Part shown: piece by piece, positions 15,773 to 63,000 of the stretch | Numbering within the stretch: the stretch's first letter is position 1 | Layout: every line of letters starts with the position of its first letter | Notes under the pieces: generated by a model | What the model was told of the DNA's origin: nothing | The model's database searches: none | Seen by the model: the letters and a program-made list of their open reading frames with translations, nothing else | Assembly (NCBI GenBank): GCA_021432655.1 | Contig: MU271302.1 | Location: 7,303 to 71,302, forward strand | Source: Atractiella rhizophila | Lineage: Eukaryota | DNA: 64,000 bases | Direction of reading: 5' to 3' | Position numbers and translations under genes: made by a program

Positions 15773-16140
15773 CTACCACTACCAATTCTTCTCTTGCTCC
15801 CCGGACTCGCAAATGCCTGACCTCTCGCTATTTGCGTACTCCCCCCATCATCATCCTCGCAAAGGAGATGTCCTCCTCGCACCGCCCGCTCTCCAAAGAA
15901 TAACTGAACACCAAGATGCGCCTTCATCGCCACTTCCCTCACAAGCCAATCCCCAAGGAACCAGTGGATGAAGTCTCGGAAGTCAAACGAGTCCACTACA
16001 CAGTACTTGAGTGTTAGCTCATATATGGCTGTTGCATTTTTGAAGGTGCTCAAGAACTCGTGGGAAACGAGGTTTGATGTTCTTCGCCCCCGTCGACTTC
16101 CAGGAGGGTGAGGGTGTGTGGGTGTGATAGGTCGAAGGGA
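15773..16140 (-). pseudogene. F-box/LRR family copy A, 3' fragment only
   Basis: TSNLVSHEFLSTFKNATAIYELTLKYCVVDSFDFRDFIHWFLGDW...HLGVQLFFGE matches the family C-terminus; frameshifted and 5'-truncated. Confidence 0.85.
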
Positions 16141-16721
16141 GAGGGAGCGCGCGGATGAACTCGGTGTTCTCTTCATCCGATGGAGTTTGCGTTTTGGGTG
16201 TTATTCCCTTCACCATGTTTCTTGCATCTCAGTCACTGTCAACCCCAGCCAAAGAGATGAAATCCACTAATCTCCAACAATGCGAAGAAGTGAAGCACCA
16301 AACAAAGGCTTTCATATTTGTTTGTATGGGAGCGACCTCTTCTTTTCTTTTCAGATAGGATCAACAGATTTCTACTCAAAAGGGTTGAAGAAATCGGCTC
16401 ATACACAAATTCAAAATGGATTAGAGGCTTGTAGCTCTGTTCTCCCGGTCCCCTTCGAGTCTGTGAATTTGCAACAGGTAGCAGCACAATGACAGGGAAA
16501 AGTAACATATTTAATTTGAACCTCACGGGGACAGACTTGATGAGCCAGTGGTATCGTCCAAGCTCTTAGTCTAAGTGTTCGGCCCGCCAAGGGAAAAAAA
16601 AGTCAACGAGTCCTCCAAGTTTTTTCATATTCGCAGGCACCTCCTTCAGTCGTGGGCTGCTGAGAGGAGTCGAGAGTCTGATACAGTCGCTTCGCATTTC
16701 GCATTAGGTGTGTGGATAGGA

Positions 16722-21465: not shown

Positions 21466-23022
21466 CTAGTCCGCAGGCTCCCAAACGCCGGACTCCTTGC
21501 TTTTCCTGTACTCCGCCATCATCTTCCTCGCATTCACGATCTCCTCCTCGCTCCACTCTCCGAAGAAGAAATGAGCCTCAAGATGTAACCCAATCTCCCG
21601 TCCATCAAACCGATCCCCCTTCTCCATCCTCCTCACCCACCCATCTCCAAAGAACCAGCGGATGAAGTCTGGGAAATCGAATGGATCCACCACGCAGTAT
21701 AGGAGTGTTATCTCGTTTATCGCGGTTGCATTTTTGAGGGTACTGAAGAACTGTCGGGAGACGAGGTTCGACGTTTCTTCCCCCCCATCGAGGCTCAGGG
21801 AGGTGAGCTGTGAGAGGTGTGACAAGTCGAGCGGAGTGGATAGGATGGTGGTTGTTCCATCCATGGAGAATGGGGCGAGCACAATCTCGAGATACTCCAG
21901 AAGAGGCGGCAGAGGGTAGTCTGAGATGGAGGTAGGGAGAGGACATAGGTTAGAGAGACGCAGGTAGAGGAGGCTACGTGGGAGAGAGAGGGATGGAAGA
22001 GGTGGGTACCTTCGAAGGTGTAGGTGTTCTAGGTGGGAAGATAAGTGAAGACCTTTTGATGCCGAAGGGACAGAGTCTTCCACGTCGTAAGCTCTGAACT
22101 CTCTAATCCTGTTACCCATCCTTCGCATAAAGTTCTCGATCTTCTCCTTCCTCCACTTTCTCGAACCCCTCTTTCTGAAAGTCACGTCATTCACCCGTTC
22201 CAAACCTTCGATTGCATTCAACACAATACTCGCTTCCTCTTCATTCCAAAATGCATCCATCACCACTTCCGTAACATTCGGCGAGCCTGCGATGACCTCT
22301 TTCACCATCCCAACGCTGAAACTGCCATACAGCCACAGTCCGTCCCACAGTCGTCCGGTACCAGGATAGCGTTTCAACCGCTCATACTTTTCTGCCAGAG
22401 ACTCAGACTCGCGCTCATGCGGAGCTGAAACGTCCCTCCAGATCTCGCACACCTTAGAGAGAATGGAAGCTTCGGCGCCATCGAGGAAACTGAACATTAG
22501 AGAGAGGAGCTCAACAGGCAAGCGCGAGATTGAGTGTGGAGTATCGTCTGGAGGTGGGACAGAGAGTTGGATGATGCTCGCTCTGTGGAGGGATTGGAGT
22601 GATGACGATTCGTTGTCACCGATGGGGATGAACTGTCTCTTGCGTTGGGAGTATGAGGCTAGAGGAGTGAAGACGGCATTTTCGTGAAAGAAAGGAGATG
22701 TGCGGGTATATGATTCGCCATATGAAGCAAGTGAGTCGACAGCATGCCCTTCAACATCCAAAAAGGTTACTGAGATATTTTCTCTGTTGATGATAAGCCA
22801 AGATTGATTACACCATTCTCGTTGACCGCATTCGCGACCCGTTCCAGTGATAAATAAGACAATTTTGAGGACATCTGTCCAGGCTCCCAATTCCGTTTGA
22901 ATGGACGTGGTAAGATAAACGAAATCCGGAGCGTGTGAATTGACAGAGGTAGGCGGGATAGAAAGAGGGAAGAATGGACACGTGGATCGACGACCTGTAT
23001 CCTGGGGTGATGACATGGACAA
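21466..23022 (-). CDS. F-box/LRR-like protein, copy C (N-terminal domain scrambled by frameshifts)
   Basis: 518-aa ORF with ISRLPVELLSLMFSFL...LSKVCEIWRDVS and the LRR region. The family start MTEQE at 23083 lies in another frame. Confidence 0.78.
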   Translation of the reverse strand: MSMSSPQDTGRRSTCPFFPLSIPPTSVNSHAPDFVYLTTSIQTELGAWTDVLKIVLFITGTGRECGQREWCNQSWLIINRENISVTFLDVEGHAVDSLASYGESYTRTSPFFHENAVFTPLASYSQRKRQFIPIGDNESSSLQSLHRASIIQLSVPPPDDTPHSISRLPVELLSLMFSFLDGAEASILSKVCEIWRDVSAPHERESESLAEKYERLKRYPGTGRLWDGLWLYGSFSVGMVKEVIAGSPNVTEVVMDAFWNEEEASIVLNAIEGLERVNDVTFRKRGSRKWRKEKIENFMRRMGNRIREFRAYDVEDSVPSASKGLHLSSHLEHLHLRRYPPLPSLSLPRSLLYLRLSNLCPLPTSISDYPLPPLLEYLEIVLAPFSMDGTTTILSTPLDLSHLSQLTSLSLDGGEETSNLVSRQFFSTLKNATAINEITLLYCVVDPFDFPDFIRWFFGDGWVRRMEKGDRFDGREIGLHLEAHFFFGEWSEEEIVNARKMMAEYRKSKESGVWEPAD

Positions 23023-25888
23023 GTGCCGTCGAGCTTGAGGCTTTAGAGCGGTGGCGTGCGCTAGATGTTTCCTGCTCCGTCATCGTTTGAGAAGAGATAG
23101 CAGACTAGAACCCAAAACCCATGTTAGTGAGACAAAGAATATCAAAGGTGGAGATAAAATCATGCCTGATTTGCCTCAGCAGCAGCGGGCGCGAACGTCC
23201 TAACCCTTCGCATCTTGACGTGATTGAAATGTGATGAAGATTGAATTAAAAGTTGAACTGAGGTCCCAACCTGTGAAGTGAGAGACTATTTGGATGAACA
23301 GTGTGGAAGAAGGGTAAGACTGATGGATCCTTTCGTTGTTGGGACACAGTAGTTGGTCGCATGCCTTTATTTCATGTGGAGAACTCGAACTTCAAGCAGG
23401 AGGATGTTTTGGTTGTGTGTCGGGCGAAAAGAATTAACCCTGTGTGGATGAATGGAGCGATTCAAGTGGCAGATGTGGGGAATGGATGTTCCACCTGGCA
23501 GTTGGAATCAAGAGTGTGCGTTTGCAAGGAAGCCCTCCATACCTGCAGTCATGAATATTATCTGGTTTGATGCTCCCCGCTCCCCCTTTCCCAGGCTGCA
23601 AAGACGAATCGAATTAGCTCACAGATTGTTGGGGAGGCAGGGAAGACCTGCTTATGGAGGACAAAAGGAGGCCTAACTGAGTCGAGAAATCGCGCTCGGC
23701 AAAATTTCAGCAGACCTTGGATAGGGGAGAGAATCTCAGTTTGGCTATGGTGTAAGAGAACGACGTGGGCGAAATATTAGAGCGTGTACAACTCACCAGC
23801 CTGAGTGACGTGCAGCAAATTGCTCCTCCTTCCCTGCGCGCCTCTCTTACGCGAGTGAGTAAGAAGACAGGATATTCTAAGGTATTCCTGTCGCCAGCGT
23901 CTCTGAAGGAAGTCGGTTGGTAGGGCAGGGGGGGACGGATGTGGTTCGATCCAGGTGGCTTCACACTCAGCTTCCTCCTCACATGAAGCCAGAAAGCAAT
24001 GCTGTCGTTGTAAGAGAAATAGGTACCCGTTTGTCCATATATACAGTATGCAAAGGTAGTACACCTAGGATGACAGGCAAGTCCTGCATTCTAATAGGAT
24101 CGTTGACGCATAGGTACGTTTTGTGCGTTGATATACGTTGATATGCGAGTAACTCTTGAAGCTTGAAGGGCAGGAGAAAGCAAAAGGTGTCCCACCTTTC
24201 GAATCGCCTTTGCATGGTTAGTTTCTGGAGCGACAAAGACCAACCTTCATCGTCAATCTTCCCTTACCTCATATCGCAAGAAAGCAAGGAGAACAAATAA
24301 AAGTTTCGTCCTTTGGTACTATCATATTACGACAGATATGAGGATTCTGTAGGAAGACAGCCTTGCTTGCATGGAGGGCCATCGTCCCCTTTGGATAACG
24401 GCGCAGAGCTTCGGCGATGTCCCACTCCTGCATCCTGCTCCATCGCGTCGCATAAAATCAGCATTGTGAGAGGAAAAAGTCAACATTAAGGAAGGTAAAC
24501 AACGTGGTCGAGGAGAGTAACATTCCCGGTTCCATCTCCTAATCCCTCATTCGCAGCCAGCTAGTCACTCAACCCTTGCTTCATCGTCTTCGCTAGCAGC
24601 CCTGTCTCCCACTCCTCATCTCATCTCGACGCCCTTTCCTCGAAATCCTTCTTCAATCGCCCTCATCTCTTCCTCCCATTTCCTCGACATCAGCTCTCCA
24701 CGTCCCCGTCTACGCCCGCTTCCCGTCCAATGTCCTCCACCTCCGTTCCGGAACCTTGCCCGCTACCACTCCTACAAAGGACCTTTGAGGAAGCATCCTA
24801 GTTCGCTGAATATCCCGACATAGTTCCAGCGAGCGGGTGAAGGAAGTTGGAGGCGAATGGCGAATGGCGAAGACGAAAGATGGACGCTTGGCGTGTTCCT
24901 GCCAAGTTGTAAAAGCGGAAGGAGGGGGCAGAGGTACAGGACGGTTAAGCGGAGGGAGGTCGTTCGTGCCAATCCAGCGGAGAACTCGTTGAGTGGTTAT
25001 GTGATGTCGCGCTAGCCGAAGAGCAGAGAGGTGGTAGGTAGGTGGTGCATGTGCTTTCGACCCTTCTCCACCGCTCCACCCTACTGTCCTCACCCTCCTC
25101 CTCTGCAGGATATGCGTTCTGCTTAAACCAAATCATCCCCTTCCGTCTCGCCCACGAACCCACCTCGATCAACCGAGATCAACCTATCTTCTCTGTCTTC
25201 CCTCTGCCGCGTTCTCTACACCAACTTGTATGTGGGGCTGCTCCGGCTGCTCTATCTGGATAAACGGAAGGAGAAAGGAGACGGAAGACGCGGAGCAACA
25301 ACGTGGTGTTAGCTGTTGTGCCACGCGAGTAGATCCACTGTAAACGCGCTTTGGGAGGTTCTACAGTATGTCGGGTGGTGGCACGTCAGGTGAGTGAAGG
25401 TAACGGTGAAGACAGAGTTGCGGAGATGGAATGCAAGCGATTGTACATTTTGTCCTGTTTGTCAACAAGTTGGTTCACATTTAATTGGACGTCATGCCCG
25501 AGTCCTCCTAGGTCGTAATATAAAACATCTTCCCAGCTAGCAAAAGGAGTGCTCAAGTCACCTTCGAAGTACTGATGGGGGTGGCTGCTAACTCAAAGAA
25601 CTTGCGTTGTAGTTGCAATGCCAGTAACAGTCTTGTATTGTACAAATTTTTGATGAGCTATAACTAAACTTTCGGTCAATAACTTTGATGGATCCCTGCA
25701 CCAAGTTGGGTAAGCTTAGTGGCACCCTTTCAGGCCATAATCAAAGTGCTAGGCATGATGAGTGAAATCATGGCACAAGCCTTCAGCGACGTCGGGCGTG
25801 TCCGAAGGCTGGCTGAGCACTCACAATCGATATGAGAGTCAGCCCAGTCGCGTTGTACATGTACGAGAATCGCAAAGAGCCTTCTTCG

Positions 25889-27529
25889 CTAGTCCCCAGG
25901 CTCCCAAATGCCTGACCCGTCCGTCCTTGCGTACTTTGCCATCGTACTCCTCGCAATCGCAATCTCCTCCTCGCTCCACTCTCCAAAGAATAAATGAACC
26001 TGAAGATGCTCCCCTATCTTGCTCCCATCTTCCCGATCACCCTTCTCAGCTCCCCTCAACCGCCAATCCCCAAAGAACCAGCGGATAAAGTCTGGGAAGT
26101 CGGACGAGTCCACCACACAGTACGAGAGCCATATCTTCTGTATCACCGTTGCATTTTTGAGGGTGCTGAAGAACTTGCGGGAAACGAGGTTTGACGTTTC
26201 TTCGCCCCCATAGAGGAACAGATCGGTGAGGTGTGTGAGGTGTGATAAGTCGAGCGGGGTGGGTAGGATGGAGGTCTTTCCGGTAACAGAGAAGGGGGAC
26301 AGCTTGATATTGAGATATTCCAGAAGAGGCGGCAGAGTGTAGTCTGAGATGGAAGAAGGGAGTGGACACATATTGGAGAGTTGGAGGTGCTTGAGAGTGC
26401 GTGAGAGGGAGAGCGACGGGAGAGGTGGGTACTTGTCGAGGCCTAGGTATTCGAGGCGAGAGGATAAGCGAAGACCTGCTGAAGCTGAAGCGGGAGAGTC
26501 CTCCACACCACTCCAAACTCTGAACTTTCTGATCCTGTCACCCATCCTCTGCATAAAGTTCTCGATCTTCTCCTTCCTCCACTTTCTCGAACCCGTCTTT
26601 CTGAAAGTCACGTCATTCATCCGTTCCAAACCTTCGATTGCATTCAACACAATACTCGCTTCCTCTTCATTCCAAAATGCATCCATCACCACTTCCGTAA
26701 CATTCGGCGAGCCTGCGATGACCTCCTTCACCATCCTAACATCCATGCTTTTGTCAAACGTCAGTTTATTCCACAGTCGTCCAGCACTTGGATAGCGTTT
26801 CAACCACTCATACTTACGCACCAAAGAATGAGGTTCATCCCAATAAGGAACTGAAACTTCCTTCCACAGCTCGCAGACGTTAGAGAGATTAGAAGTCTGG
26901 TCAAGGAAACTGAATGCGAGGGATAGGAGCTCGACGGGCAAGCGCGAGATTGAGCATGGAGTAAGAGGTGGGACAGAGAGTTGGATGATGGTAGCTGTCG
27001 TGAGGGATGGGAGCGATGATGATTCGTTCTCACCGATGGGGATGAAGTGGCGTTTATGTGTGGAGTATGACGCAATGGGGGCGAATATGGCATTCTGGCG
27101 AAAAAAAGGAAATGTGCGAGTAAATGGATCGAAATATGAAGCAAGCGGGTAGGACTCCGATTTGAAGTCTCTTTCGATAGACGAAGTATGCCCTCCAACG
27201 GCCAAAAAGGCTACTGAGACATTTTCGGTGTTGATAGTAATGTGAAGATTGATTGCACCATCGTTGCGGAGGACATTTTTGGCCCTTTTAAGTGATAAAT
27301 AAGACAATTTTGATGACATCTCCGCAAGTTTCCGCTTTCTCAATGATTGCGATAAGGCAAAAGAAATCCGGAGTGTGTGAATTGACGCAGGGAGGCAAGC
27401 TAGGAAAGATGGAAGAATGGAGAGGTGGATGGAATGGCTGGAGTCGTGCGGGGTGATAACATGGGCTAATGTCGTCCAGTTTGGTTCTTGAGAGCCGTAG
27501 AAAATGCCAGCTATTTGCTCCTCCGTCAT
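25889..27529 (-). CDS. F-box/LRR-like protein, copy D (full length)
   Basis: Uninterrupted 546-aa ORF from the family start MTEEQ through the N-domain, F-box (ISRLPVELLSLAFSFL..LSNVCELWKEVS) and LRRs to SGIWEPGD*. Confidence 0.88.
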   Translation of the reverse strand: MTEEQIAGIFYGSQEPNWTTLAHVITPHDSSHSIHLSILPSFLACLPASIHTLRISFALSQSLRKRKLAEMSSKLSYLSLKRAKNVLRNDGAINLHITINTENVSVAFLAVGGHTSSIERDFKSESYPLASYFDPFTRTFPFFRQNAIFAPIASYSTHKRHFIPIGENESSSLPSLTTATIIQLSVPPLTPCSISRLPVELLSLAFSFLDQTSNLSNVCELWKEVSVPYWDEPHSLVRKYEWLKRYPSAGRLWNKLTFDKSMDVRMVKEVIAGSPNVTEVVMDAFWNEEEASIVLNAIEGLERMNDVTFRKTGSRKWRKEKIENFMQRMGDRIRKFRVWSGVEDSPASASAGLRLSSRLEYLGLDKYPPLPSLSLSRTLKHLQLSNMCPLPSSISDYTLPPLLEYLNIKLSPFSVTGKTSILPTPLDLSHLTHLTDLFLYGGEETSNLVSRKFFSTLKNATVIQKIWLSYCVVDSSDFPDFIRWFFGDWRLRGAEKGDREDGSKIGEHLQVHLFFGEWSEEEIAIARSTMAKYARTDGSGIWEPGD

Positions 27530-35270: not shown

Positions 35271-35320
35271 TGAGCTGATTAGTGAAGGAGGAGTAATCAG
35301 GAGGAGTAAATACTGGTCGT

Positions 35321-49457: not shown

Positions 49458-52050
49458 TAGGGATGGCTATCGAAGCATATCGGACCTGGAAAGGGTACTT
49501 TCGTCCGTCGGTGTTCTTTGTATCGTACTCGAATCGTATCGTCTATCGTAAACCAATATCCAGTCCGTTCTGTATAACCACCAATACGACTTCCAGCAGG
49601 GTCGTTCGACAGGTACAGGACAGTTTGACTTGTATTCCACTGAAATATCAAGACTAATCCATTATTTTGCCGCCTTCCCAGTTTTGCTTCCCTGCAACTC
49701 CCACAACTTTCTCAATAATCTCTTCCTTTCCCTGTTCCGATCCAGCTTGAGCTTCGCTTTCGTAAGGATGAGGACACAGATTGATGAAGGCTTCAAACGG
49801 TGTCGTCTGATCCCAATGGTGTCGCGAGCACCAGAAAAGATGCGTTCAACTCCAACAGCATATCCTGATAGCAAATTGAAAAGTCGTTACAATTGCCACA
49901 AAGAGTAGTAAAAGTATATACCTGGAATAGAGAGGATATCTTGTGCCATGTGGGACCAAGCAGGGAGCTGCGTCTTTGCTTGATCTTTGTACCACTCAAA
50001 GATATCTGTGCTATTAGGAAGCTGATAATGGGTCATGTTGTAATTGACCTCACACATTGCCTCAAGTTCGGTCATCGTGTCGTCAGCTAGTTGCACATCG
50101 TCATCGTCGCTGTCACTGTCAACATCATTGAAGGCTTTATCGAGGTAAGAGTCATTGCCAGTGGAGGTGGGCATCAGTTCAGTTGTGGATCCATTGCCAT
50201 AATTTGGAAAGTATCTATCCTTGAATAGTTGAATCAGATTGTCTTTATGCTTCTCTATCGCAGCTTTCTCCGGTTGACTGAAAATTGAGCGTTCGAAGAA
50301 GTTGGGTCCAAGCCGAGGATCAAGAACTAAGTAGGTTTCAGCCTTGACGATACATGTAAAGTGCAATGGGATGACATACGAGCAGCATAGACATAATATG
50401 GAGAGTCACCAGAACGGTAGTGGTACTCTGCAAGCTTTGTGTAGGCGTCGACAAGTCCGCTCCGATAACCCTTTGACATGTTGGGCGGAAACTCCTTGAT
50501 TGCCTTCTTCGGGTGCTTGAGCAAGCCATGGTACTGACGGAGGGTTGAGGAGAGACAGGGGATCGATGTTGTTGACATTTGAAGGGTCACATCTCGGAAA
50601 GCTTTCAGCCAATTACAGACAGTCCTTATCCCCTCCCAATCCTCCTCAGATAACCTTTCGTCCTCACCGATCTCGTAGTGATCCGAATAGCGTTCAATAG
50701 CATGTCGGCAGGAGTCAGCAAGATTGAGCATCTCATGGGTGGAACTCCATCGAGTCCGAACATCAAGAATAAGCCAAGGACATGTCAGACATACTCTGAA
50801 TCTCTGCTAATGCTTTCTCTAGCTCCTCTAACCAGTTGCCACGCCGATTGGAAGAGCTACGGATACCTCGGATGAATGTGCGCAGCTGCAGTAGGAACAT
50901 CATTGGCTCAGCAGGTATGTTGCACTAGAAGTGACGGAGTGACCTACTTTATGGATTGCACCTTTCAAGCTGTCCAGCTCCTCATCATGGTAATCCAACT
51001 CTGCCCTTCCGTCTTCATAAACACCACCAAGCTTCTCCGTAACACAGTCTTGATGGTTTGTCCTCCTTTTCTTCTTTTTATCATCTTGTTCTGACTTGGT
51101 CCAGATGCCGAGGGAATCAAGGAGGGTGAGGGCAGAAAGATAGATGATATGGGGGAAGCAGCGAATCCGGCGTTCCTTAGCATCGAAGGGGATTCCTTTT
51201 GAAGTGAACTTGCTAGTGAGAGAGGTCATCATTATGTCGTTATTAGACGCATTGTCGGAGGTAATGCAGCCGATCTACATCCACAATGTATGAGAAGGAA
51301 ACATGAAGACAAATCAAAAGAAATCTAGTCACCTTGCTTGCAATTCCAAAGAACTCAATGCATCTCCACACAGCTTCAGCCATATTCTCCCCAGTGTGAG
51401 ATCCCGGAAGCTCTGCAAAATCAAGAACAACCTCATTCACTTCCCAATTACAATCAATGTAGGTTCCAGTAGTGCAAAAGAAGGAGAAGCCATTTTCGGA
51501 GGTCCACGCATCAAGTGCAAGATGAATCGTGGTATCTACTCCCTATTCATAGAAGAATTGTTAGCAATTGATGTTTAACTGTCAATCAAATAGCAAACCT
51601 GCAGTTCCTTCTTGAGTTCTTCCAACAGAGTATCCCCTTTCTTCATCACCTTGCCCCTCAACGCCTTCCTCTTCAGTATCTTGATCTTCTTTAGGTCGAC
51701 CTCGGCTTCAGCCTCCTCTCCTTTGCTTGCACCACCTCATCATCTGTATTCCAAGCAGCTTCTTCCTCAAGGTTGAGGCCAGAGTCTTGTCCAGGTTTTA
51801 AAGTAGGATAGGTATACTGAAGATATTCAAGATGGTTACGGAACTGAGGGTTCTCAGTGAGCAGGAAGGGCTGATCGGTTGCAACAAAGAACTCTGTCAA
51901 AAGATTTTCGAACTTCATTTGATCGAAACTCTGCAGACACAAAAGCGTCAGAGCAGAGTTGCATAGGCAGAGTACAGTGAAGACATACCTGTTCGTCAAA
52001 GCGTGCACGCATGGTGTTTACATGATCCACCATATCTTTTTGTTTCTTCG
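49458..52050 (-). mobile_element. Degenerate hAT transposon with intron-containing transposase; other end not found
   Basis: TIR-like TAGGGATGGC at 49458 with TATCG subterminal repeats. Transposase motifs LDAWTS, GSHTGENMA, TSDNASNN, RIRCFPHII, LDVRTRWSST, LDPR, MAQDILSIP, VERIFS, RRHRLKP. Stops and frameshifts present. Confidence 0.9.
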
Positions 52051-52525: not shown

Positions 52526-54178
52526 TCAAGCCTCCCAAACACCAGACCACCTGCTCGCACTTGTTGCCCACTCTCCCATCGTCCTCCATGCAACCACAAT
52601 CTCCTCCTCTCTCCATGCTCCAAAGAATAAATGAACCTCAAGGTGGTACCCCATCTCCTTTCCATCAACCTGATCCCACTTCTCAGCTCCCCTCATCTGA
52701 GAATCCCCAAAGAACCAGCTGATGAAGTCTGGGAAGTCGACCGAGTACACCACACAGTAGTGGAGTGTTATCCAGTATATCCCTTTTGCATTTGTGAGGG
52801 TGCTGAAGATCTTGGGGCAAATGAGGTTTGATGTTTCTTCTCCCCCATCGAGGATCAGGTGTGTGAGGTGTGTGAGGTGTGATAGGTCGCATGGAGTTGA
52901 CAGGATGGAGGTTTTTCCACTAACAGAGAAGGGGGCGAGCACGATGTTGAGATGTTGCAGATGAGGTGGCAGAGGGTACTTTAAGATGGAGGGAGGGAGT
53001 GGACAAAGATTGGAGACATACAGATGCTGGAGGGTATGTGGAAGGGATAGTGATGGTAGAGGTGGGTACATGTAGAGGTGTAGGTATTCGAGGCGAGAAG
53101 ATAGATAAAGCCCTGCTGGGGCTGAAGTGGGAGAGTCCTCCACATCATTAATACTGAGCCGTCTGATCCTGTCACCCATCATCCACATGAAGTTCTCGAT
53201 CTCCTCCTTTCTCCACTTCCTTGAACCTGTTCTTCCAAAAGTTAAGTCATCCACCCATTGCAAGCCTTCAATAGCATTCAATACAAGCTTCGACTCCTCT
53301 TCATTCCAAAATGCATCCATCCAAACTTCTGTGCCATTTGGCATGCCTGTGATGACTTCTTTCACCATCCCAACATCCATGCTTTTGTCAAATGTCAGTC
53401 TGTCCCACAGTCGTCCAGCACCCGGATAGCGTTTCAACCACTCATACTTTTCCACCACAGAATTAGGTTCGGGATAATAAGGAACTGAAAGCTTGCCCCA
53501 GAGCTGGCAAACGTCAGAGAGGTCGGCAGCATTGTCGGAGAAACTAAATATGAGAGAGAGGATCTCAACAGGCAAGCACGAGATGGTGCATGGGAAAACA
53601 TATGAAGGTGGGACGGAGAGTTGGATGATGCTCGCTGTCGCTGCTGGAGGGAGGGTGAAGAAGGATTTTGGGTGGCCGGCGATGCGGTGGAAGCGTGAAG
53701 ACTGATGATTGTATTTGGCCAGGGGGGTGAAGATGGCATTCTCGCGAAAGAAAGGAAATGTGAGAGTGTACGGATCGCCAGATGAAGGAAGCAGGTCACC
53801 CTCTGATTTGACATCTCTTCCGACTGTTGACACATGCCCTTCAATGTCCAAAAAGGTTACTGAGACATCTTCACTTTTGATGGTAATGTGAAGATTGATT
53901 ATACCTTCTTTGTTGATCGCATTTTTGACCCATTCAAGATTCAAATACGAAACTCTTGATGACATAGCCCTATGCCATTGCCATCCACCACGTTGGGGAG
54001 ACAAGTCACACGAAATCTGGACCGTGTGAATTGACGAAGGTAGGTGAGATAGGAAAGAGGGAAGAATGGAGAGGTGAATCGAACCGGGCGCATTGCTTGG
54101 GGTGATAAGATTGACAAGTGCCATCAAATCTGGTTCGGCAGAACTATGGCAAAAGCTGGATGTTCGCTGCTCCGTCAT
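52526..54178 (-). CDS. F-box/LRR-like protein, copy G (full length)
   Basis: Uninterrupted ORF from MTEQRTSS (ATG 54178) with F-box ISCLPVEILSLIFSF..LSDVCQLWGKLS and LRRs, ending SGVWEA*. Confidence 0.86.
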   Translation of the reverse strand: MTEQRTSSFCHSSAEPDLMALVNLITPSNAPGSIHLSILPSFLSHLPSSIHTVQISCDLSPQRGGWQWHRAMSSRVSYLNLEWVKNAINKEGIINLHITIKSEDVSVTFLDIEGHVSTVGRDVKSEGDLLPSSGDPYTLTFPFFRENAIFTPLAKYNHQSSRFHRIAGHPKSFFTLPPAATASIIQLSVPPSYVFPCTISCLPVEILSLIFSFSDNAADLSDVCQLWGKLSVPYYPEPNSVVEKYEWLKRYPGAGRLWDRLTFDKSMDVGMVKEVITGMPNGTEVWMDAFWNEEESKLVLNAIEGLQWVDDLTFGRTGSRKWRKEEIENFMWMMGDRIRRLSINDVEDSPTSAPAGLYLSSRLEYLHLYMYPPLPSLSLPHTLQHLYVSNLCPLPPSILKYPLPPHLQHLNIVLAPFSVSGKTSILSTPCDLSHLTHLTHLILDGGEETSNLICPKIFSTLTNAKGIYWITLHYCVVYSVDFPDFISWFFGDSQMRGAEKWDQVDGKEMGYHLEVHLFFGAWREEEIVVAWRTMGEWATSASRWSGVWEA

Positions 54179-57079
54179 CTTTTGAGCAAATAGAGCAGAA
54201 TAGTTCCCATAAAGCACGTCAGATGACAAACTCAACGCCAAAGGTGGAGATGGAATCGTGCCTGGGTGGTGTCATTTGCATGGGTTAGCCTCCTCCTTGC
54301 CGTCCTCATCTTGACTGGATGGAAACTGTGACGAAGATTGGCAAAGACAGTGAACCGATTCCCAAACTGTGAGCTGGAGACGACCTAGATAAACAGTTCG
54401 TGGAGACTGGCGAAACTGATGGATTCGTCTCGTTGATGGGGATAGAAGTGTGTGGCATGCCTTTATTTGACGCAGAGAACTCCGACGTTAGAGTGGTCCG
54501 TTTGGAAGGGAATTGACCTTCTGTGAATGAATGGGGCGATTTGCCGGAGGGAATGGGGAACGTATGAGCTGGCCGATAGACAAGTTGGAATCAAGAAGCA
54601 GTTCGAAAAAGGCGTCCGTACCTGTGGTGCTGACTGTTACTGTATGGGAGGTAGGGATGATGGACAGTTCCCTAGCGGATAGATGACTTACCCTTGCAGT
54701 ACAAAAGGGATGACTGATTGAGAGACTAGAGTCGTTCGGAAGAGTGGAAGTAGACCTTGAATGGAGTTTCAGCTTTGGTTTCAGGAAGTCTGCAGGTAAG
54801 ATATTACAGCCGGAATAACTGACGAATGACATCCAGCGGATTGCGCCGTCTTCACTGTCCGATTTCTCCCTTTCGACCTAGATGTCAACCATTAATGCCT
54901 CCATACTTCCCTCCTCCAGCACTCCACCCATCATCCTCTTTCATTCCAATTGACCTCATAAGGGAAGACGGATACTCTCATTCGTCGTTCTTCAACTCGC
55001 GCTTCGATCTTCCTTCGTGAGCCAGAAGATGGTGCAGGATTCTGAGGCATTCCTGTTGTCACCGTCCCAAGAGCGGGTCATTCGTTGAAGGAGAGGAAGA
55101 AAATGTTGCTCGATCAAGATTGCTTGGAGCTCATCTTCTTCCACACGTCGATCCTGGAAGCAATGCGGCTGTTCGAAGGAAACAAGCCTATATTTCTCAC
55201 CTCGAAGGCTGTGAGTAAGAAGCAATCAGCCAATACACAGGGATTCCTGTGAAAAACGAAGGTGATCGAACTCTTTGGCTCTGTCCCTGAACGGTGCGAG
55301 GTCTCGGACGATGTTTTCTTCGTAAATACTCAGCAGTCTGATAGCGATGAGGAAGAAAACGATGGCGACGATCTATTGCGATAACATGCAACGCATCAGG
55401 CTCAGCTGCTTTGGTGCAACATAAGTTATAGGGGTGAGGGATGAGGATGATATTCGAAGGTATTTCCAAGTGCTAAGGCATGTTCGAACCAAGGAATCCT
55501 CCTTCATCCATCTTTCCAAAAGATGGTTCTAATCGGCGTTCACTCATTCTTCGGTCTCCCTCAAGACGTCGATCTGCTTCTTCGTCAGTCTACTGGGATA
55601 AATTTGGTCGTCAGCGTGTACACGATCCTGTTACCTGTTTGAGTCCACTGAGGGATGAGGGGTGATGCTGCCAGCAGATTTGAATGACGCTCTGCCTCTG
55701 ACTGGCCCGTTGAATGCTCAAAGAAGCCGAGAACCATGATAACCTGTTTCTGTGTTCAGTCCCCTTTCCTCCTCAATGAGGGGTTCCACTTCACGCTCTG
55801 AGCTATCATCCGGCCCCTCCAACTCTGCTCCAGCACTCATCTCCAGACGATTCGTATGGAGGGACAGGTGTGAGAACGATGACTGTGTTGAGTGGCGCCG
55901 CGCTACCAAATCTCCTTCCCCAGACGAGGGGAGTCTTGATCGATCTCTTGCAGCTTCAACGGCAGCGGGAAGCGTTAGGTGTGTTATCTTTCGAATCACC
56001 TTCGGATGTGACGTTGTCCGGCATCTGAGTGCAGCCACTATCCTCAATCTCCGCTTGTCTTAGGAACAGAAGGCGTACGAATCATGATTTTGTCTTTCAA
56101 TATTTTCGCCATACCACAGATGCGAACATGCTGTAGGCACCCAGGACTGCTGCAAGAAGGTGAGAGTCGTCCCCCTTGCAAAACCCGCCAGAGACTCGAC
56201 AAGGTCAACTCCTGCGTCCCTGCTCTATCGCATCGCATGCGATCAGCGTTTGTGACGGCGAAAGATGGTTAAGTATGGAAGACCCACAACACAGTAGATT
56301 AGTATTACCTTCCCGGTTCCATCTCCCCATCCTCATCCGTCAACCAAAGAGCCACTCAATCGTTGTCTCTTTACATCACACCCGTTCGTACTCTTCATTC
56401 TGAAAGAAGCAGCACCAACGGTGCACCGGTTCTCTCGCATGCCACCTCCCTTCTCGACTCTCTTCTTCAATCCATCCTCATCCTCTCACCCCCCCCCTTT
56501 CCGCGACAACACCTCTCCATCTCAACATCTAGTCTCGCTTTCCATGAATTTCCCCCTCTCCTCCTAAATTCCGGAATCCCACCCTCACCTCTCGTAACAA
56601 AGCCATAGAGAACGAGGGAGCCTTTCTCCGAATGGTTCCAGTGAGCCGCCTGGGGAAGTCGGAGAGATGAATGGTCGAGCGGTGTGTGGAGCTGATGGTA
56701 GACCTAGCCGGACAGTGTTGGAATGAAGGGAAGAGCTCGCTGGTGACGCTGAGGAATTCGGAAGGAGTTGTTATTGTTGTTGATGGTGTCATATTTCAGA
56801 GCTTTTTACGGGGCCTATTGGTCATGAAGCTCTTCTCCTAGTTTGTGTAACGACATCCAAACCGGAAATCTCCTCCTCCCTTTGTTGATTGTAGTATCCT
56901 ACGCTTCCTCAAACTCCCCCTTTCACTCCTGTTTAATCTTCTTCTCCTCTTCCGGTCTAGCTTTGTCCGCCATGGAGACCTGCTTGCTTCGCTAGCATCT
57001 GAGATGACTGGATCAGAGTCAAAGCTCCGTAGCATGAGAGGGTTGACATGATACACCGTATTGACTGCCAACAGGACTG

Positions 57080-58375: not shown

Positions 58376-60004
58376 TCATTCCCCTGCCTCCCAAACACCT
58401 GACCACCTGCTCCTTTCCCTGTTAGCGTACTCTCCCATCGTCCTCCGAGCAATCACGATCTCCTCCTCGCTCCACTCTCCAAAGAATAAACGAACTTCAA
58501 GATCGTCCCCCATCCTCTGCCCATCTTTCCGATCCCCCTTCTCAGCGCCTCTCTCCTGCCAATCCCCAAAGAAACAGCGGATGAAGTCTGGGAAGTCGAA
58601 CGAGGACACCACACAGTACCGGAGAGTTATCCAGAATATCCCCGTTGCATTTTTGAGGGTGCTGAAGAACTCGCGGGGAACGAGGTTTGACTTTTCGTCG
58701 CCCCCGTCGAGGAACAGCTGGGTGAGGCATGTCAGGTGTGATAAGTCGAGCGGGGTCAGTAGGATAGAGGTCTTTACGTCGGCAGAGAAGGGGGCCAGAT
58801 CGATCCAGAGAATATTCAGAATAGGCGGCAGAGGGTACTCTGAGATTGAGGAAGGGAGCGGACACATATTGGAGAGTTCGAGGCACTTGAGGGTGTGTGG
58901 GAGGGGGAGCGATGGCAGAGGTGGGTACTTGTGGAGGCGTAGATATTCGAGGCGAGAGGGTAAGTGAAGGCCTTCTGAGGGTGAGGCTGAAGCGGGACAG
59001 TCCTCCACATCCCGAACGGTGAGCCGTCTGATCCTGTCATCCATCCTCTGCATAAAGTTCTCGATCTCCTCCTTCCTCCACTTTCTCGAACTCCTCCAAA
59101 ACCTGGCTTCGTTCACGCGTTTCAAGCCTTCGATTGCATTCAACACCATCTTCGCCTCCTCTTCATTCCAAAATGCAAACATCACCACTTCCGTGACATT
59201 CGGCGAGCCTGTGATGACCTCTTTCACCATCCCTACATCCATGCTTTTGTTAAACACCAGTTCGTTCCACAGTCGTCCGGCACCAAGATAGCGTTTCAAC
59301 CGCTCGTACTTTTGCACCAAAGAAACATGTTCGCCCCAATAAGGAACTGAAACTTCCTTCCAGAGCTTGCAAACTTCAGAGAAGGTGAAAGGATCATAGG
59401 ATAAACTAAATATGAGAGAGAGTAGTTCCACTGGCAAGCCTGAGATGGAGGATCGAATAACATCCGGAGGTGGGGCAAAGATTTGGATGATGCTCGCTGC
59501 CCTGAGGGATGGGAGGGTTGACGATTCGTCGTCACTGATGGGGGTGAAGCCTTCTTGTTCGGAGTATGAGGCTATGGGGGCGAATATGGCATTCTCGCGA
59601 AAGAAAGGAAATGTGCGAGTAAATGGATCGAAATATGAAGCAAGCGGGTAGAACCTCGATTTGATGTTTCTTTCGATAGACGAACTATGCTCTTCAACGG
59701 CCAAAAGGGTTACTGAGACATGTACGGCGTTGATGGTAATGCAAACGTTGATTGCACCATCCTTGTCGACCACATTCTCGACCCGTTCAAGTGATAAAGA
59801 AGACAATCTTGATGACGGCTCTGCAAATTTCCGCGTCCTCAATGATCGAGTTAAGGCAAACGAAATCCGGAGCATGTTAATTGACGGAGGTAGGCGAGAC
59901 AGGAGAGAGGGAAGAATGGAGAGGTGGATCGAATCGGGATAATGCTCTGTGTTGATAACATGAACAAGTGCCATCGAGTCTGGTTCTGGAGAACTATGGC
60001 GCAA
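58376..60004 (-). CDS. F-box/LRR-like protein, copy H (first in-frame ATG at 59974)
   Basis: 542-codon ORF with N-domain, F-box ISGLPVELLSLIFSL..FSEVCKLWKEVS and LRRs. The family start codon is changed to GTG and is out of frame. Confidence 0.82.
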   Translation of the reverse strand: MRHSSPEPDSMALVHVINTEHYPDSIHLSILPSLLSRLPPSINMLRISFALTRSLRTRKFAEPSSRLSSLSLERVENVVDKDGAINVCITINAVHVSVTLLAVEEHSSSIERNIKSRFYPLASYFDPFTRTFPFFRENAIFAPIASYSEQEGFTPISDDESSTLPSLRAASIIQIFAPPPDVIRSSISGLPVELLSLIFSLSYDPFTFSEVCKLWKEVSVPYWGEHVSLVQKYERLKRYLGAGRLWNELVFNKSMDVGMVKEVITGSPNVTEVVMFAFWNEEEAKMVLNAIEGLKRVNEARFWRSSRKWRKEEIENFMQRMDDRIRRLTVRDVEDCPASASPSEGLHLPSRLEYLRLHKYPPLPSLPLPHTLKCLELSNMCPLPSSISEYPLPPILNILWIDLAPFSADVKTSILLTPLDLSHLTCLTQLFLDGGDEKSNLVPREFFSTLKNATGIFWITLRYCVVSSFDFPDFIRCFFGDWQERGAEKGDRKDGQRMGDDLEVRLFFGEWSEEEIVIARRTMGEYANRERSRWSGVWEAGE

Positions 60005-63000
60005 AAGCTGGATGTTTGCTGTTCGGTCACCTTTTGAGCAAATAGAGCAGCCTGGTTTCCATGTACGTCAGATCGGAAACTGAAAGCCAAAGGTGGAGAT
60101 GGAATAGTGCCTGAATCGCAGCATCAGTAGACACCGTCCTCCTCTCTCTTCTCTCTTGACGCGGTTGAAACTGGAGGACTGACGAAAAGTTGAACTGAGG
60201 TCCCAAACTGTGAGCGGCGAAACTGCCTGGATGAGCGGTTCGTAGGAGGATGAGTGAAGATAGGGAGATCTATGGATTGTTTCGTTGGTTAGAATGGCTT
60301 TATTGATGTTGCGATCTCGGATCACAAGGAGGCTGTTTGATGTTTGGGTCACCTTGGGCAAAGAATTAACTCTCTGTAAATCAATGAAGCGGATGAAGCA
60401 GTGGATGTGGGGAACGGAGCTTGAAACTACCACGCTGAAAGAGTCTGCCGTTGTGAATATCAAGGTTTGGTAATCCTCCGTCCCCTTTCCCACGTTCCAA
60501 AGACCATTGCGTAGTTGACAATTTGTTCGAGGTGGTACGGATTATAACTATGAAAGCTACCACTGTTTCCTCGCGGATAGATGATCCACTTGTGGAGGAC
60601 AACCGGAGAGACTCGAAGACGTCCGTAAATGAAGGAGAGAATGTCAGTTTGAGAGAAGTGTGCGCGGAAATATTGGCGTGTGAAAAACTCACAAATGACA
60701 ACCACCAAAGTGCACCTGTTTCACTCTTCCCTTTCTCCTCCTTCAGCTTCCCTGTCAACCACTCTGCACCCGTTGCTACTGAACTATATTCCTCCATCAC
60801 TTACGTCTTCCTCCCCTCTGTCATCCTCCCTCATTCAGGTCCGAACTCGTTTGCCTTATATGTGGAGACTGAGATTCCCGTTCCCTTTCCTGCTTCCCAC
60901 CCTGAAACCCGTTGAGCAAGGATTCTGAGGAATTGCACTTGCTGCCATCTCAGAGGGGTGATCGTTCGTTGAAGGAGGAAGGAAGTGGTTCAATCGAGGG
61001 GCTTCAAACTCATCTTCTTCCTCGCATCGATCCAATGTAGTCGTTCAAATGGAAACATGCTTCTCGCTTCGAGGACTGGGAGTATAGAACTATCAGCGAA
61101 TATCCTGGGATTCTTGTGAAAAGCGAAGGAGAACGGACTCTTTGACTCTGTCCCTGAACGGTTTCAGGCCATGGACGATGTCGGAAGGGTTGCAGGCTGA
61201 TGGGAAGGGGTCGGCATGATTTGTTTATGGGCGGTCTTGGGATCGATGACAGTGAATGGAGAAGTAGTCGGAGTGAGGAGCTAGCAGAGTCGTCAAAAGC
61301 TGTCCCAGTACAAGCAACGTCAGTCTCCGAATCATCTAGTAACAGAACATCAAGAATGCAAGAATGCAGACCTGAACAGGAATACCACAATCCCACGAAA
61401 GATGCCGTTCCGACAAACGGCTAACAAAGCCAGTTGGCGTTGAAGAAGGCGAAGTTCCATCGCGCAGTGATAGTGAGGGGGGGGCATTACAAGGTACTAA
61501 ACTTCGCGTGGTAGGCAAGTCCTTCATTCAAATGAGATTGTCGGAGAATCGAGCTGTTTCGTGTGTTGATATTCGTCGATATGCAAGAATTTTTGGAGCT
61601 TGATGGGCAGGGGGAAGCATAAGGTGTGCTAATGACTAGTTTCTCGAGCCTCTGAGTCTAGCCATCATCGTCCATCCCCCTTCGTGTTAGGAGAGGAAGG
61701 CATACCAACTATGGTTGGGTCGTTTGATACCCTCGCTTTACCACAGATGTGAATATTCTGTGGGCTGCCAGCACTGCTGACAAGAACGCGCGAGTTATCC
61801 CAGTCCCAAGTTGGACAGCGTGGCGGAGCCTCGACGATGTCCCACTCTTTGCTTGCTGCTCCATCACATCACAAGGAATTAGCGCAGTGGACAGTGAATA
61901 ATGCGAAAGTAGGGAAGACGGACAACATGGTCACCCTCGCCAGTCCTTCCATTCCACAAGAAGCCCTCACTCATATGCTGACTCCCAAGTCGCAGTCTTT
62001 CCTCCTCGACACCCTTCTTCAATCCTTGCGCATACTCTTCAGCACTCCAGCTCCGCGTCTGCTCCCGTTTTCCATCCATCCTCCTCCTCTCCCAACAAGA
62101 GGTTAGAGAATGAAGAAATGTGCCCTTTCCTGAATATTCCAAGTGGTTCCAGCGAGTCGGCGGGGGAAATGGGTGATGAATGGCGCAGGCGAATGATTGG
62201 TCACTCGACGCATTCCCGCAACGTTGGCGAAGCGAAACGAGGGGGGAGCAGAGGGAGGGACAGGATTTGCGACGTACAGGACGGTTGAGAGAAGGTAAGT
62301 CGTTCATCCGAATATCCTCCAGAGAGCCCGTAGAATGGTTACTTGATGTCATGCAGGAGGAAAGCAGACAAACAGTAGGTAGGTGGTGGACGCGTTCTCA
62401 ACCCTTTTCCACCGCTTTGTCCTCGCCTCTTCCTCCTCAGGATATGTATACGCCGTGAAACAAAACCTCCTCGAACGCTTCCTACGCTTTCTCCAGCACC
62501 AAACCGACCTCGACCCACTCAACACCTTCTCCTTCCTCCTTGTCCTCCTCTGCTGCCTTCTTAATCAATCCGTCTGGAGACTATTCCGGTCATTTTATCG
62601 GTCCGGCCACAACGGGAGGAGGAAAGAGAGAGATGGGGATGACGCGTATTCACTGTGGGCGCCATGAGTGCGTCTACTTCGAACGCGTGTTGGGAGGCTC
62701 TGCGGTAAGTTGGGTAGTGGTCCGTCAAACCGAAAGCGAAGGCAGGAGCAGAGACGAGGAGCGGACGTGGAGAAAAACGTGTGTGTGGACGGTTGTGGCT
62801 TGGGGAGGTGTCGAAGAGTGCTTGTGCGGGATGGGGGCTTTGGGATCGGGAGGGAGGGGATGCCAGTGAGGAGCTTTGGGTTGGGGAAGGAGAGGGATGG
62901 CTGTCGTGGAACAGGCAGCAATTGGGCCAGTCAAGGTGGCGCGTCACGGCGTTCAGTGGATGGTGGGCTGCGACTAGCAGCAGCCGGGCAAGGTTAGAAT

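What the first reader, a model, noticed from the sequence alone, without database searches (positions are those of the whole stretch)
15773..60030. Tandem F-box/LRR array with hypervariable exposed beta-strand residues: candidate diversifying recognition (immune-like) system
Seen: about 8 co-oriented paralogs with near-invariant scaffold segments (AFWNEEEA, KWRKEEIENF, CPLPSSIS, GGEETSNL, FPDFIRWFFGDW, LFFGEWSEEEI). The x positions of each xxLxLxx strand differ in almost every copy: RLMLDR/GLWLYG/KLTFDK/ELVFNK; NWLKVDN/REFRAYD/RKFRVWS/RRLSIND; EYLDLYK/EHLHLRR/EYLGLDK/EYLHLYM/EYLRLHK; EHLTLV/EYLEIV/EYLNIK/EYVDIE/NILWID; YRIILRY/NEITLLY/QKIWLSY/RVISLAH/CWIALKY/YWITLHY. Established: F-box proteins are SCF substrate receptors, and this surface-focused diversification is typical of plant NLR LRRs and of rapidly evolving nematode and plant F-box families. 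Inference: a fungal repertoire that targets foreign proteins (virus, TE, endosymbiont, effector or non-self) for ubiquitination. There is no signal peptide, so it should act intracellularly.
Basis: partly seen in the sequence, partly recalled or inferred. Interest (0 to 1): 0.85.

Follow-up and report, generated by a model that had tools for sequence, protein, structure and literature searches.

The report
Fungal F-box/LRR gene array, hypervariable surface
A root-endophyte fungus carries a fast-duplicating, species-restricted family of likely ubiquitin-ligase adaptor genes whose predicted binding surface differs in nearly every copy, a pattern known from nematode and plant F-box genes but, in my searches, not described for fungi.

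Summary
Observation confirmed. Window 15.6-60.1 kb holds eight co-oriented minus-strand paralogs. Three are clean (c4, c7, c8), two have 5' lesions (c2, c3), one has a single frameshift (c5), one is dead (c6) and one is a 3' fragment (c1). Transposon remnants lie between them.

Each protein has an N-terminal beta domain with no fold match, an F-box, and a ten-repeat LRR solenoid (Z 17.5-17.9 to RanGAP, FBXL17, FBXL2). Every named relative matching beyond the F-box is from Atractiella rhizophila.

In 55 paralogs from outside the window, strand positions 2/4/6 of every repeat average 2.9 bits of entropy. The flanking hydrophobic positions average 0.7 bits and the rest of the LRR 1.2.

dN/dS at these positions is 1.5-2.2. 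Standard site models find omega about 3.5 for 12% of sites, and 10 of the 14 best sites fall in the predicted positions. My simulations show this test is fooled by site-rate variation; allowing for that leaves p=0.02.

Contigs with intron-like gaps point to transcription.

Verdict: a diversified F-box/LRR receptor repertoire is well supported. Positive selection is probable but not proven. Skp1 binding and an immune role are untested.

The parts
15628..16200 (-). c1: degenerate 3' fragment of a paralog (last ~120 codons)
   Evidence: 15786-16145 matches the 3' ends of c2, c3, c4, c5 at 70-73% nt identity
16722..18380 (-). c2: uninterrupted 552-codon frame; 4-nt deletion at the position of the c4 start codon; a 52-nt GT..AG segment (18130-18181) is removed in one sequencing contig
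21466..23079 (-). c3: F-box and LRR in frame; two 1-nt deletions (near 22962 and 22797) shift the first part of the N-terminal domain; a 99% identical twin (339 of 343 aa) lies on another contig
25889..27655 (-). c4: clean copy used as reference (569 aa with 5' exon). Start codon at 27655, intron 27551-27607 (GC..AG), main exon 25889-27550. In 546-aa numbering from 27529: N-domain 26975-27475, F-box helices 26774-26950, ten LRR strands 25991-26770
27937..27990 (-). 54-nt GT..AG segment in the 5' untranslated region of c4, removed in an exact-match contig of run X4
36572..38348 (-). c5: one 4-nt deletion near 37750 splits the frame (ORFs 37633-38238 and 36572-37984); probable young pseudogene or sequencing error
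39053..40670 (-). c6: dead pseudogene, 10 frame-breaking indels relative to c4
52526..54271 (-). c7: clean copy (550 aa from 54178)
58376..60067 (-). c8: clean copy (532 aa from 59974)
29826..31967 (+). Helitron-like remnant between c4 and c5 (weak match)
   Evidence: Helitron_like_N E 2.9e-4, below cut-off
43392..47508 (-). frameshifted copia-type LTR retrotransposon between c6 and c7
   Evidence: RVT_2 E 6e-56, gag_pre-integrs, Pol_BBD, Retrotran_gag_2
49887..52017 (-). possible hAT-like remnant (weak)
   Evidence: Dimer_Tnp_hAT E 0.0013, below cut-off; other ORFs no hit

Best explanation
The window holds one array of a large birth-and-death gene family restricted to this species.

Each protein has a family-specific N-terminal beta domain, an F-box, and a ten-repeat leucine-rich-repeat solenoid of the FBXL type. 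The scaffold (the hydrophobic strand positions, the helices and loops, and the core F-box residues) is kept by purifying selection. The alternating outward-facing residues of all ten beta strands, which in LRR proteins form the concave binding face, differ in almost every paralog. They are rich in Tyr, His, Asp and Arg.

The most likely working: each paralog is an SCF ubiquitin-ligase substrate receptor. The F-box docks on Skp1 and the individualised concave face binds a different, or fast-changing, protein, which is then ubiquitinated. New specificities arise by duplication plus selection for change at those positions, and unused copies decay.

Shown: architecture, fold class, distribution, pattern of variation, decay of copies.
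Probable: omega above 1 at the variable positions; transcription.
Inferred only: Skp1 binding, ubiquitination, nature of the targets.
For: Architecture:
- F-box-like Pfam hits in 42 of 61 members.
- F-box core residues L197, P198, E200, L202, V218, C219, W222 are kept in at least 90% of 61 sequences.
- A profile against PDB sequences matches only the F-box segments of FBH1, FBXL5, FBXW7 and FBXO3.
- Model pLDDT 79, pTM 0.71.
- VIA Z 17.7 over residues 217-546 to FBXL17 and Z 17.5 over 191-545 to FBXL2 in its SKP1 complex. All 50 Foldseek rows shown are LRR proteins.

Variation:
- In 55 paralogs from outside the window, heptad positions 2/4/6 average 2.93 bits, positions 3/5 average 0.70 bits, and the rest of the LRR 1.17 bits (Mann-Whitney p 9e-15).
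- 20 of the 30 most variable positions in residues 191-546 are heptad positions 2/4/6.
- Composition at those positions: Tyr 8x, His 3.2x, Asp 2.4x, Arg 2.2x enriched; Pro and Leu nearly excluded. These positions are therefore filtered by selection, not free.

Codon data:
- LRR scaffold omega is 0.42-0.48 (p about 1e-10 against 1). Positions 2/4/6 give omega 1.5-2.0 with their own rate and 2.2 with the gene's dS.
- Four-fold-site divergence is the same in variable codons (21 of 76, 0.276) as gene-wide (436 of 1659, 0.263).
- M2a gives omega 3.5 for 12% of sites. 10 of the 14 sites with P>=0.9 lie in the 50 x positions (Fisher p 1.3e-8).
- The result holds per segment with each segment's own tree.
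- M2a+gamma still gives p=0.022, and 5 of its 8 top sites are heptad 2/4/6.

Birth and death: decayed copies sit beside clean ones. 33 of the 73 strong representatives are under 300 aa. c3 has a 99% identical twin elsewhere.

Transcription: exact-match contigs of run X4 lack 52-57-nt GT/GC..AG segments on the gene's strand. One is the same exon junction as in the public model of paralog P0003.
Against: - No window copy reaches Pfam's F-box cut-off (17-22 bits against 24.3).
- No Pfam LRR family matched any of the 61 members at E<=0.01.
- The strong site-model tests are not decisive. Three of three simulations under M1a with gamma (alpha 1) site rates gave 2dlnL of 65-82, against 69.6 observed.
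- With a gamma term the five uninterrupted genes alone give p=0.14.
- With the class's own dS free, omega at positions 2/4/6 is not significantly above 1 (p 0.09-0.13).
- Nei-Gojobori counting gives a ratio of 0.85 there.
- Whole-gene omega is 0.70, and the N-terminal domain runs at 0.8-1.0. This fits some relaxed constraint.
- Tree topology differs between segments, so recombination among copies may add noise.
- The kind of run X4 is not on record.
- Exposure on the concave face is inferred from the strand pattern. I had no access to model coordinates.
Confidence: 0.6

Rival explanations
1. Relaxed constraint only. The family is redundant and partly decaying. The variable strand positions are simply the least constrained surface residues, drift at about the neutral rate, and carry no selected diversity of specificities.
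For: Omega at positions 2/4/6 is not significantly above 1 when the class's own dS is free (p 0.09-0.13). The NG86 ratio there is 0.85. The rate-variation null reproduces the M2a statistic. Whole-gene omega is 0.70 and N-domain omega 0.8-1.0. Five of the eight copies in the window are damaged.
Against: Other parts of the LRR, including helices and loops that should also be exposed, run at omega 0.42-0.48. The composition of the variable positions is far from unconstrained: Pro 0.1%, Leu 2.3%, Tyr 8.9%. An overall rate at or above neutral despite such filtering therefore implies faster-than-neutral turnover among the allowed residues. M2a+gamma keeps a class with omega 2.3-3.0 (p 0.015-0.022). 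Frames of 530-570 codons stay open at dS 0.3-0.7.
Confidence: 0.2
2. Same molecules, different purpose. The repertoire serves conflict within the species or genome (allorecognition, hybrid incompatibility, toxin-antidote or transposon control) rather than defence against foreign organisms.
For: The array is transposon-rich. The family is found in one species only. Young F-box genes play such roles in Caenorhabditis according to the listings and abstracts of PMC11573670, PMC12680543 and PMC12951971.
Against: No direct evidence here. No isolate comparison was possible. No partner gene travels with the copies: the repeated segment 3' of them shows no preferred reading frame.
Confidence: 0.1
3. 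Host-directed effectors. The proteins are delivered into plant root cells, where the F-box hijacks the host SCF. I recall this being described for the bacterial F-box/LRR GALA effectors; it comes from no call here.
For: The source names the organism as Atractiella rhizophila. Papers listed mention Atractiella among root-associated fungi (listing only). The F-box plus LRR architecture matches.
Against: There is no hydrophobic N-terminal segment in c4 with its 5' exon (maximum 10-residue hydropathy 0.39 in the first 45 residues). That is a crude test, and no dedicated signal-peptide predictor was available. The proteins are large (530-570 aa) and the family has over 70 members with many pseudogenes.
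Confidence: 0.05
4. Targeted hypermutation. A mutational process raises the substitution rate of the strand codons, both synonymous and non-synonymous.
For: The fitted dS multiplier is 1.3-1.5 in the x codons, nominally significant once (p 0.021, 7 copies, all 50 x positions). M1a+gamma fits better than M2a without gamma (-7410.9 against -7425.5).
Against: Four-fold-site divergence is equal in variable codons and gene-wide (0.276 against 0.263). The alternation of variable and conserved codons within a single strand is at single-codon scale. The fitted multiplier can be an artefact of multi-hit codons in a one-step codon model.
Confidence: 0.03

Closest known systems
FBXL-type F-box/LRR substrate receptors of SCF ligases (FBXL2, FBXL17, Skp2; plant COI1, TIR1, D3)
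   Same: An F-box followed directly by a curved LRR solenoid. Best structural matches: VIA Z 17.7 (FBXL17), 17.5 (FBXL2-SKP1), 13.7 (Skp2), 13.9 (COI1).
   Different: About 11% sequence identity. No Pfam LRR match (0 of 61). The repeats are irregular, with spacing of 20-43 residues. A 190-residue N-terminal beta domain precedes the F-box and has no fold match (VIA best Z 2.9, Foldseek best E 1.5). More than 70 paralogs occur in one species.
Expanded, fast-evolving F-box families of nematodes and plants (Thomas 2006, as cited in PMC8120010; passages read)
   Same: Tandem expansion. [quoted passage not shown] Many pseudogenes.
   Different: Those families mostly use FTH, FBA or other domains. 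Here the variable module is an LRR, the variation sits at defined strand positions, and the host is a fungus.
F-box expansions in mushroom-forming fungi (Krizsan 2019, as cited in PMC10282164; two passages read)
   Same: Large, fast-evolving fungal F-box families without stable orthology. ESM Atlas places residues 190-546 at score 0.96 beside fungal 'F-box domain-containing' clusters of four phyla.
   Different: Those are discussed as developmental regulators. The two passages I read do not report position-specific hypervariability. HMMER finds no relative of the LRR or N-terminal part outside this species among the proteins looked up.
LRR domains of plant NLR resistance proteins (xxLxLxx solvent-exposed hypervariability; recalled, with background from PMC4986451)
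   Same: Conserved hydrophobic ladder with hypervariable x positions. Clustered, birth-and-death gene arrays. An NLR LRR domain is the top Foldseek hit (NRC2, E 8e-5).
   Different: No NB-ARC or NACHT domain (no Pfam hit). The output module is an F-box, not a nucleotide-binding switch.
Fungal NLR-like proteins with hypervariable WD40/ANK/TPR repeats (PMC4986451, passages read; PMC1805685, listing only)
   Same: Fungal intracellular repeat proteins with positive selection on repeat surfaces, proposed as non-self receptors.
   Different: Those lack LRRs altogether ('no LRR motifs were found') and have near-identical internal repeats. Here the repeats are LRRs, dissimilar to one another, and joined to an F-box.

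Membership tests
F-box proteins (Pfam PF12937 / PF00646) | Sequence match to the ~45-residue F-box motif with its conserved Leu-Pro, hydrophobic core and Trp | tested here: met
   42 of 61 members hit PF12937 at E<=0.01 (best 5.8e-9) and 11 of 61 hit PF00646. Core residues are kept in at least 90% of 61 sequences. Caveat: the five window copies that match score 17-22 bits, below the 24.3 cut-off, and 2 of the 7 tested had no hit.
F-box proteins (Pfam PF12937 / PF00646) | Binding to Skp1 and assembly into an SCF ligase | not testable with these tools
   No Skp1 sequence of this organism could be obtained from the window or any search, so no co-fold was run.
Leucine-rich repeat proteins (FBXL / RI-like class) | Sequence match to an LRR family model | tested here: not met
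   0 of 61 members match any Pfam LRR family at E<=0.01. The PDB sequence profile matches F-box segments only.
Leucine-rich repeat proteins (FBXL / RI-like class) | Curved solenoid of repeated beta-strand/helix units with a hydrophobic ladder every 20-30 residues | tested here: met
   The model has ten strands at spacings of 24, 27, 29, 26, 20, 24, 31, 29 and 43 residues. VIA Z 17.9 (269 residues aligned, rmsd 3.4) to Rna1p and Z 17.7 (283 aligned) to FBXL17. Ladder positions 3/5 average 0.70 bits of entropy. This rests on a predicted model, not a solved structure.
NLR / STAND immune receptors | Central NB-ARC or NACHT nucleotide-binding domain | tested here: not met
   No such Pfam hit in 7 window proteins or 61 members. 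Only the LRR part resembles NLRs.
Receptor families under diversifying selection (operational class) | dN/dS significantly above 1 at ligand-facing positions, robust to synonymous-rate variation | tested here: inconclusive
   Omega is 1.5-2.2 at positions 2/4/6. M1a/M2a 2dlnL is 69.6 (7 copies) and 43.0 (5 copies). The rate-variation null gives 65-82. With gamma rates the tests give p 0.022, 0.015 and 0.14. Only 7 copies had DNA available.

The most novel reading that the evidence does not exclude
Fungi, whose NLR-like receptors lack LRRs, may have an LRR-based intracellular recognition arm after all. It would be a germline repertoire of more than 70 F-box/LRR receptors whose individualised concave faces each recognise a foreign or selfish protein (mycovirus, transposon, bacterial or host factor) and send it straight to the proteasome. 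That would be immunity by targeted degradation rather than by cell death. The fold-orphan N-terminal domain could be a second variable or regulatory module.
Probability: 0.2. Interest if true: 0.85.

Novelty: new variant of a known kind. Interest (0 to 1): 0.6.

Why it matters
Rapidly diversifying F-box receptor families have been taken as signs of ubiquitin-based defence or conflict in nematodes and plants. In fungi, F-box expansions are noted, but I found no report of position-specific diversification. Searches listed none, and no paper pairs Atractiella rhizophila with F-box.

Here the pattern is unusually clean. Ten repeats each carry two or three near-maximally variable, Tyr/His/Asp/Arg-rich positions between conserved hydrophobic ones, across more than 50 paralogs. 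That gives a directly testable set of candidate specificity residues. It also gives a natural library for asking what a fungal SCF repertoire recognises. The family further supplies an N-terminal domain with no match among solved structures.

Tried and rejected
- Whole genome: not held. Codon work was therefore limited to the 7 alignable window copies.
- Expression index: no RNA holder listed. Runs X1-X3 carry only a few short contigs of guessed kind and were not used.
- Metagenome scan with the family alignment: 120 pattern matches, none a relative.
- Earlier scan findings: none by place, words or sequence.
- N-terminal domain: no Pfam hit. VIA wide search best Z 2.9 among 48,161 chains. Foldseek best E 1.5. 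ESM Atlas best 0.79, below its lead threshold.
- M2a and M8 likelihood-ratio tests as proof of positive selection: rejected as sole evidence after the null simulations. Three plain M1a nulls gave 2dlnL of 0-0.6. Five nulls with gamma site rates gave 65-221.
- A second gene in the duplication unit: the repeated segments 3' of the copies (20.6-21.1, 24.1-24.9, 33.5-35.1, 41.0-42.6, 56.0-56.7 kb) show similar weak similarity in all frames, so no conserved coding frame. Two of their ORFs had no Pfam hit.
- Long alternative-frame ORFs inside the genes: mostly explained by composition, as synonymous-codon shuffles give similar lengths. The exception is the +2 frame of c3, c4 and c8.
- Transposon capture or retrogene origin: the homology between copies ends near the gene borders, and the 5' end has introns.
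- Skp1 co-fold: not run, as no admissible Skp1 sequence was available.
- Supplements of the cited papers were not opened.
Full report
ANATOMY

All eight copies lie on the minus strand between 15.6 and 60.1 kb. Self-BLAST shows gene-sized matches (1.5-2.6 kb, 72-80% nt identity) among c2-c8, plus a 3' fragment, c1. Protein identity to c2 is 55-68% for c3-c8 and 41% for the c1 fragment. Pairwise dS is 0.30-0.74 and whole-gene dN/dS 0.41-0.72.

Relative to c4:
- c7 is clean apart from a 5-nt deletion at its last codons, and c8 is clean downstream of its Met.
- c2 has lost 4 nt at the start codon.
- c3 has two 1-nt deletions that shift the first part of the N-terminal domain.
- c5 has one 4-nt deletion.
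- c6 has 10 frame-breaking indels.

Between the copies lie a frameshifted copia element (RVT_2 E 6e-56), a weak Helitron-like match and a weak hAT-like match.

FAMILY AND RANGE

A word-seeded search with c4 returned 59 proteins. The 55 that carry a source name are hypothetical proteins of Atractiella rhizophila; the other 4 are encoded by the window itself.

A profile of 61 members was run against 1.84 billion representatives. It gave 116 hits at E<=1e-3 and 73 at E<=1e-10; 33 of those 73 are under 300 aa.

Of 30 hits looked up, 26 are from A. rhizophila. Two are Agaricomycete F-box proteins that match little beyond the F-box stretch, and two are unnamed. Thirty-five of the 73 strong hits were not looked up.

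A family tree interleaves the window copies with paralogs from five other contigs. c3 has a 99% identical twin elsewhere (339 of 343 aa). The arrays therefore exchange or seed copies and are still active.

DOMAINS AND FOLD

Pfam finds only the F-box: 42 of 61 members match PF12937 and 11 of 61 match PF00646, while no member matches an LRR family. The window copies are below the cut-off.

The AlphaFold2 model of c4 (pLDDT 79, pTM 0.71) shows three parts:
- a beta-rich N-terminal domain, residues 19-185;
- helices at 199-252;
- ten strands alternating with helices or loops, residues 255-513.

All 50 Foldseek rows shown are LRR proteins (best E 8e-5). VIA-align gives Z 17.9 to Rna1p, 17.7 to FBXL17 (residues 217-546) and 17.5 to FBXL2 in its SKP1 complex (191-545).

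The N-terminal domain folded alone (pLDDT 82, pTM 0.75) has no match: VIA best Z 2.9 and Foldseek best E 1.5.

ESM Atlas puts residues 190-546 at 0.96 next to fungal F-box clusters of four phyla, and the N-domain only at 0.79.

PATTERN OF VARIATION

I set ten xxLxLxx heptads from the model's strands (c4 residues 254, 278, 305, 334, 360, 380, 404, 435, 464, 507). I then measured entropy in the 55 aligned paralogs that are not window copies:

| Region | Mean entropy (bits) |
|---|---|
| Heptad positions 2/4/6 | 2.93 |
| Heptad positions 1/7 | 1.69 |
| Heptad positions 3/5 | 0.70 |
| Rest of the LRR | 1.17 |
| F-box | 1.43 |
| N-terminal domain | 1.74 |

Twenty of the 30 most variable positions in residues 191-546 are heptad 2/4/6. 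Positions 2 and 4 reach 2.5-3.8 bits in all ten repeats. The variable positions hold 8-16 different residues each, except one with only 3. They are enriched in Tyr (8x), His, Gln, Asp and Arg, and almost free of Pro and Leu. That these positions face the concave surface follows from general LRR structure. I could not read the model coordinates.

CODON ANALYSIS

I wrote the GY94 code myself.

Standard site models:
- With 7 copies: M0 omega 0.70; M1a/M2a 2dlnL 69.6 (omega 3.5, 12% of sites); M7/M8 84.6; M8a/M8 69.9.
- With the 5 uninterrupted genes: 2dlnL 43.0.
- Per segment, each with its own tree: 17.5, 34.3 and 23.8, and 1.06 for the F-box. With a star tree: 90.4.
- Ten of the 14 sites with P>=0.9 fall in the 50 x positions (Fisher p 1.3e-8), and none of the 14 falls in the 20 ladder positions.

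Omega by site class:

| Class | Omega |
|---|---|
| Positions 2/4/6, class rate free | 1.5-2.0 |
| Positions 2/4/6, dS tied to the gene | 2.2 |
| Positions 3/5 | 0.3-0.46 |
| LRR rest | 0.42-0.48 |
| N-terminal domain | 0.8-1.0 |

The tie of dS to the gene is not rejected (p 0.11 and 0.37). Four-fold sites diverge equally in variable codons and gene-wide (0.276 against 0.263).

The control matters. Plain M1a nulls gave 2dlnL of 0-0.6. M1a nulls with gamma site rates gave 65-221. The standard test therefore cannot separate selection from rate variation. With a gamma term the tests give p=0.022 (7 copies), 0.015 (LRR only) and 0.14 (5 genes). Five of the 8 best sites under that model are still heptad 2/4/6.

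My reading: the positions evolve at or above the neutral rate while being filtered for residue type. This points to diversifying selection but does not prove it with seven sequences.

TRANSCRIPTION AND GENE MODEL

No run on record as RNA holds the locus.

Contigs of run X4 (kind not on record) match c2 and c4 exactly and lack short segments bounded by GT or GC..AG on the minus strand: 27937-27990, 27551-27607, 27511-27567 and 18130-18181.

The 27551-27607 junction joins a 16-codon 5' exon (start 27655) to the main exon. The public model of paralog P0003 does the same. This is most simply spliced mRNA.

The c2 segment is 52 nt long. It joins an alternative upstream frame to the main frame, so 5' isoforms may differ.

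INTERPRETATION

The family has the parts of an FBXL-type SCF substrate receptor, and the variation sits where such receptors bind substrates. The best explanation is a repertoire of receptors with individual specificities, renewed by duplication, diversification and loss.

What the targets are is open. Foreign proteins, selfish elements, conspecific non-self and fast-evolving endogenous proteins all fit. Pure relaxation, host-directed effectors and hypermutation are less well supported; see the rival explanations.

COMPARISON AND NOVELTY

The kind is known from nematodes and plants, where the F-box is conserved and the substrate-recognition domain is positively selected among paralogs (Thomas 2006, as cited in PMC8120010; passages read).

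Fungal F-box expansions are known as fast-evolving families (PMC10282164; two passages read). Fungal NLR-like receptors lack LRRs (PMC4986451; passages read).

My six literature searches on these themes listed no report of strand-specific hypervariability in a fungal F-box/LRR family. The library lacks most subscription journals, and I opened no supplements.

I file this as a new variant of a known kind. It is a new lineage and a new family, has an extra fold-orphan N-terminal domain, and shows an unusually regular variable surface.

Noticed in passing
window 27511-27607 and 18130-18181 (minus strand): Contigs of run X4 show two alternative 57-nt gaps at the 5' end of c4: 27511-27567 (GT..AG) and 27551-27607 (GC..AG). 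They also show a 52-nt gap inside the c2 N-terminal domain that joins an alternative upstream frame to the main frame. That same alternative frame is the open one in c3. Alternative N-termini may therefore exist.
   Followed up: partly
window 26046-26537 (c4), 58542-59036 (c8), 21605-21949 (c3), minus strand, +2 frame: ORFs of 163, 164 and 114 codons overlap the LRR region in the +2 frame. They have fewer stops than 500 synonymous-codon shuffles (P 0.006, 0.0, 0.008). This is not seen in c2 or c7. The other alternative frames behave as the shuffles do.
   Followed up: partly
window 26975-27475 (c4 residues 19-185) and the same part of the other copies: The N-terminal beta domain is modelled confidently (pLDDT 82) but matches no solved structure. 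It evolves at omega 0.8-1.0. Its four-fold-site divergence is lower (0.20) than that of the LRR part (0.28).
   Followed up: partly
window 20602-21088, 24118-24927, 33504-35067, 41015-42584, 55954-56674: A second repeated segment (65-79% nt identity) lies 0.4-1.7 kb 3' of c3, c4, c5 and c8, and once more at 41.0-42.6 kb just upstream of c6. No reading frame is preferentially conserved. X4 contigs there show GT..AG gaps on the plus strand (23564-23639, 25036-25106), so a non-coding or very fast-evolving transcript is possible.
   Followed up: partly
window 14554-15284, 35218-35980, 63139-63865: Another dispersed repeat (69-74% nt identity) flanks the array on both sides and occurs once inside it.
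   Followed up: no
window 9203-9907: Internal tandem similarity at offsets of about 157 and 315 bases (75% identity) upstream of the array.
   Followed up: no
c3, window 21466-22497, and protein P0020: The F-box/LRR part of c3 is 99% identical (339 of 343 aa) to a protein recorded on a contig of different length. This is either a very recent duplication or a second haplotype in the assembly.
   Followed up: partly
proteins P0060 (973 aa), P0063 (1169 aa, named TPR-like), P0071 (562 aa, named RhoGAP-domain-containing): Some public gene models of the same species join family segments to other domains or to a second family copy. These may be fusions or merged gene models.
   Followed up: no
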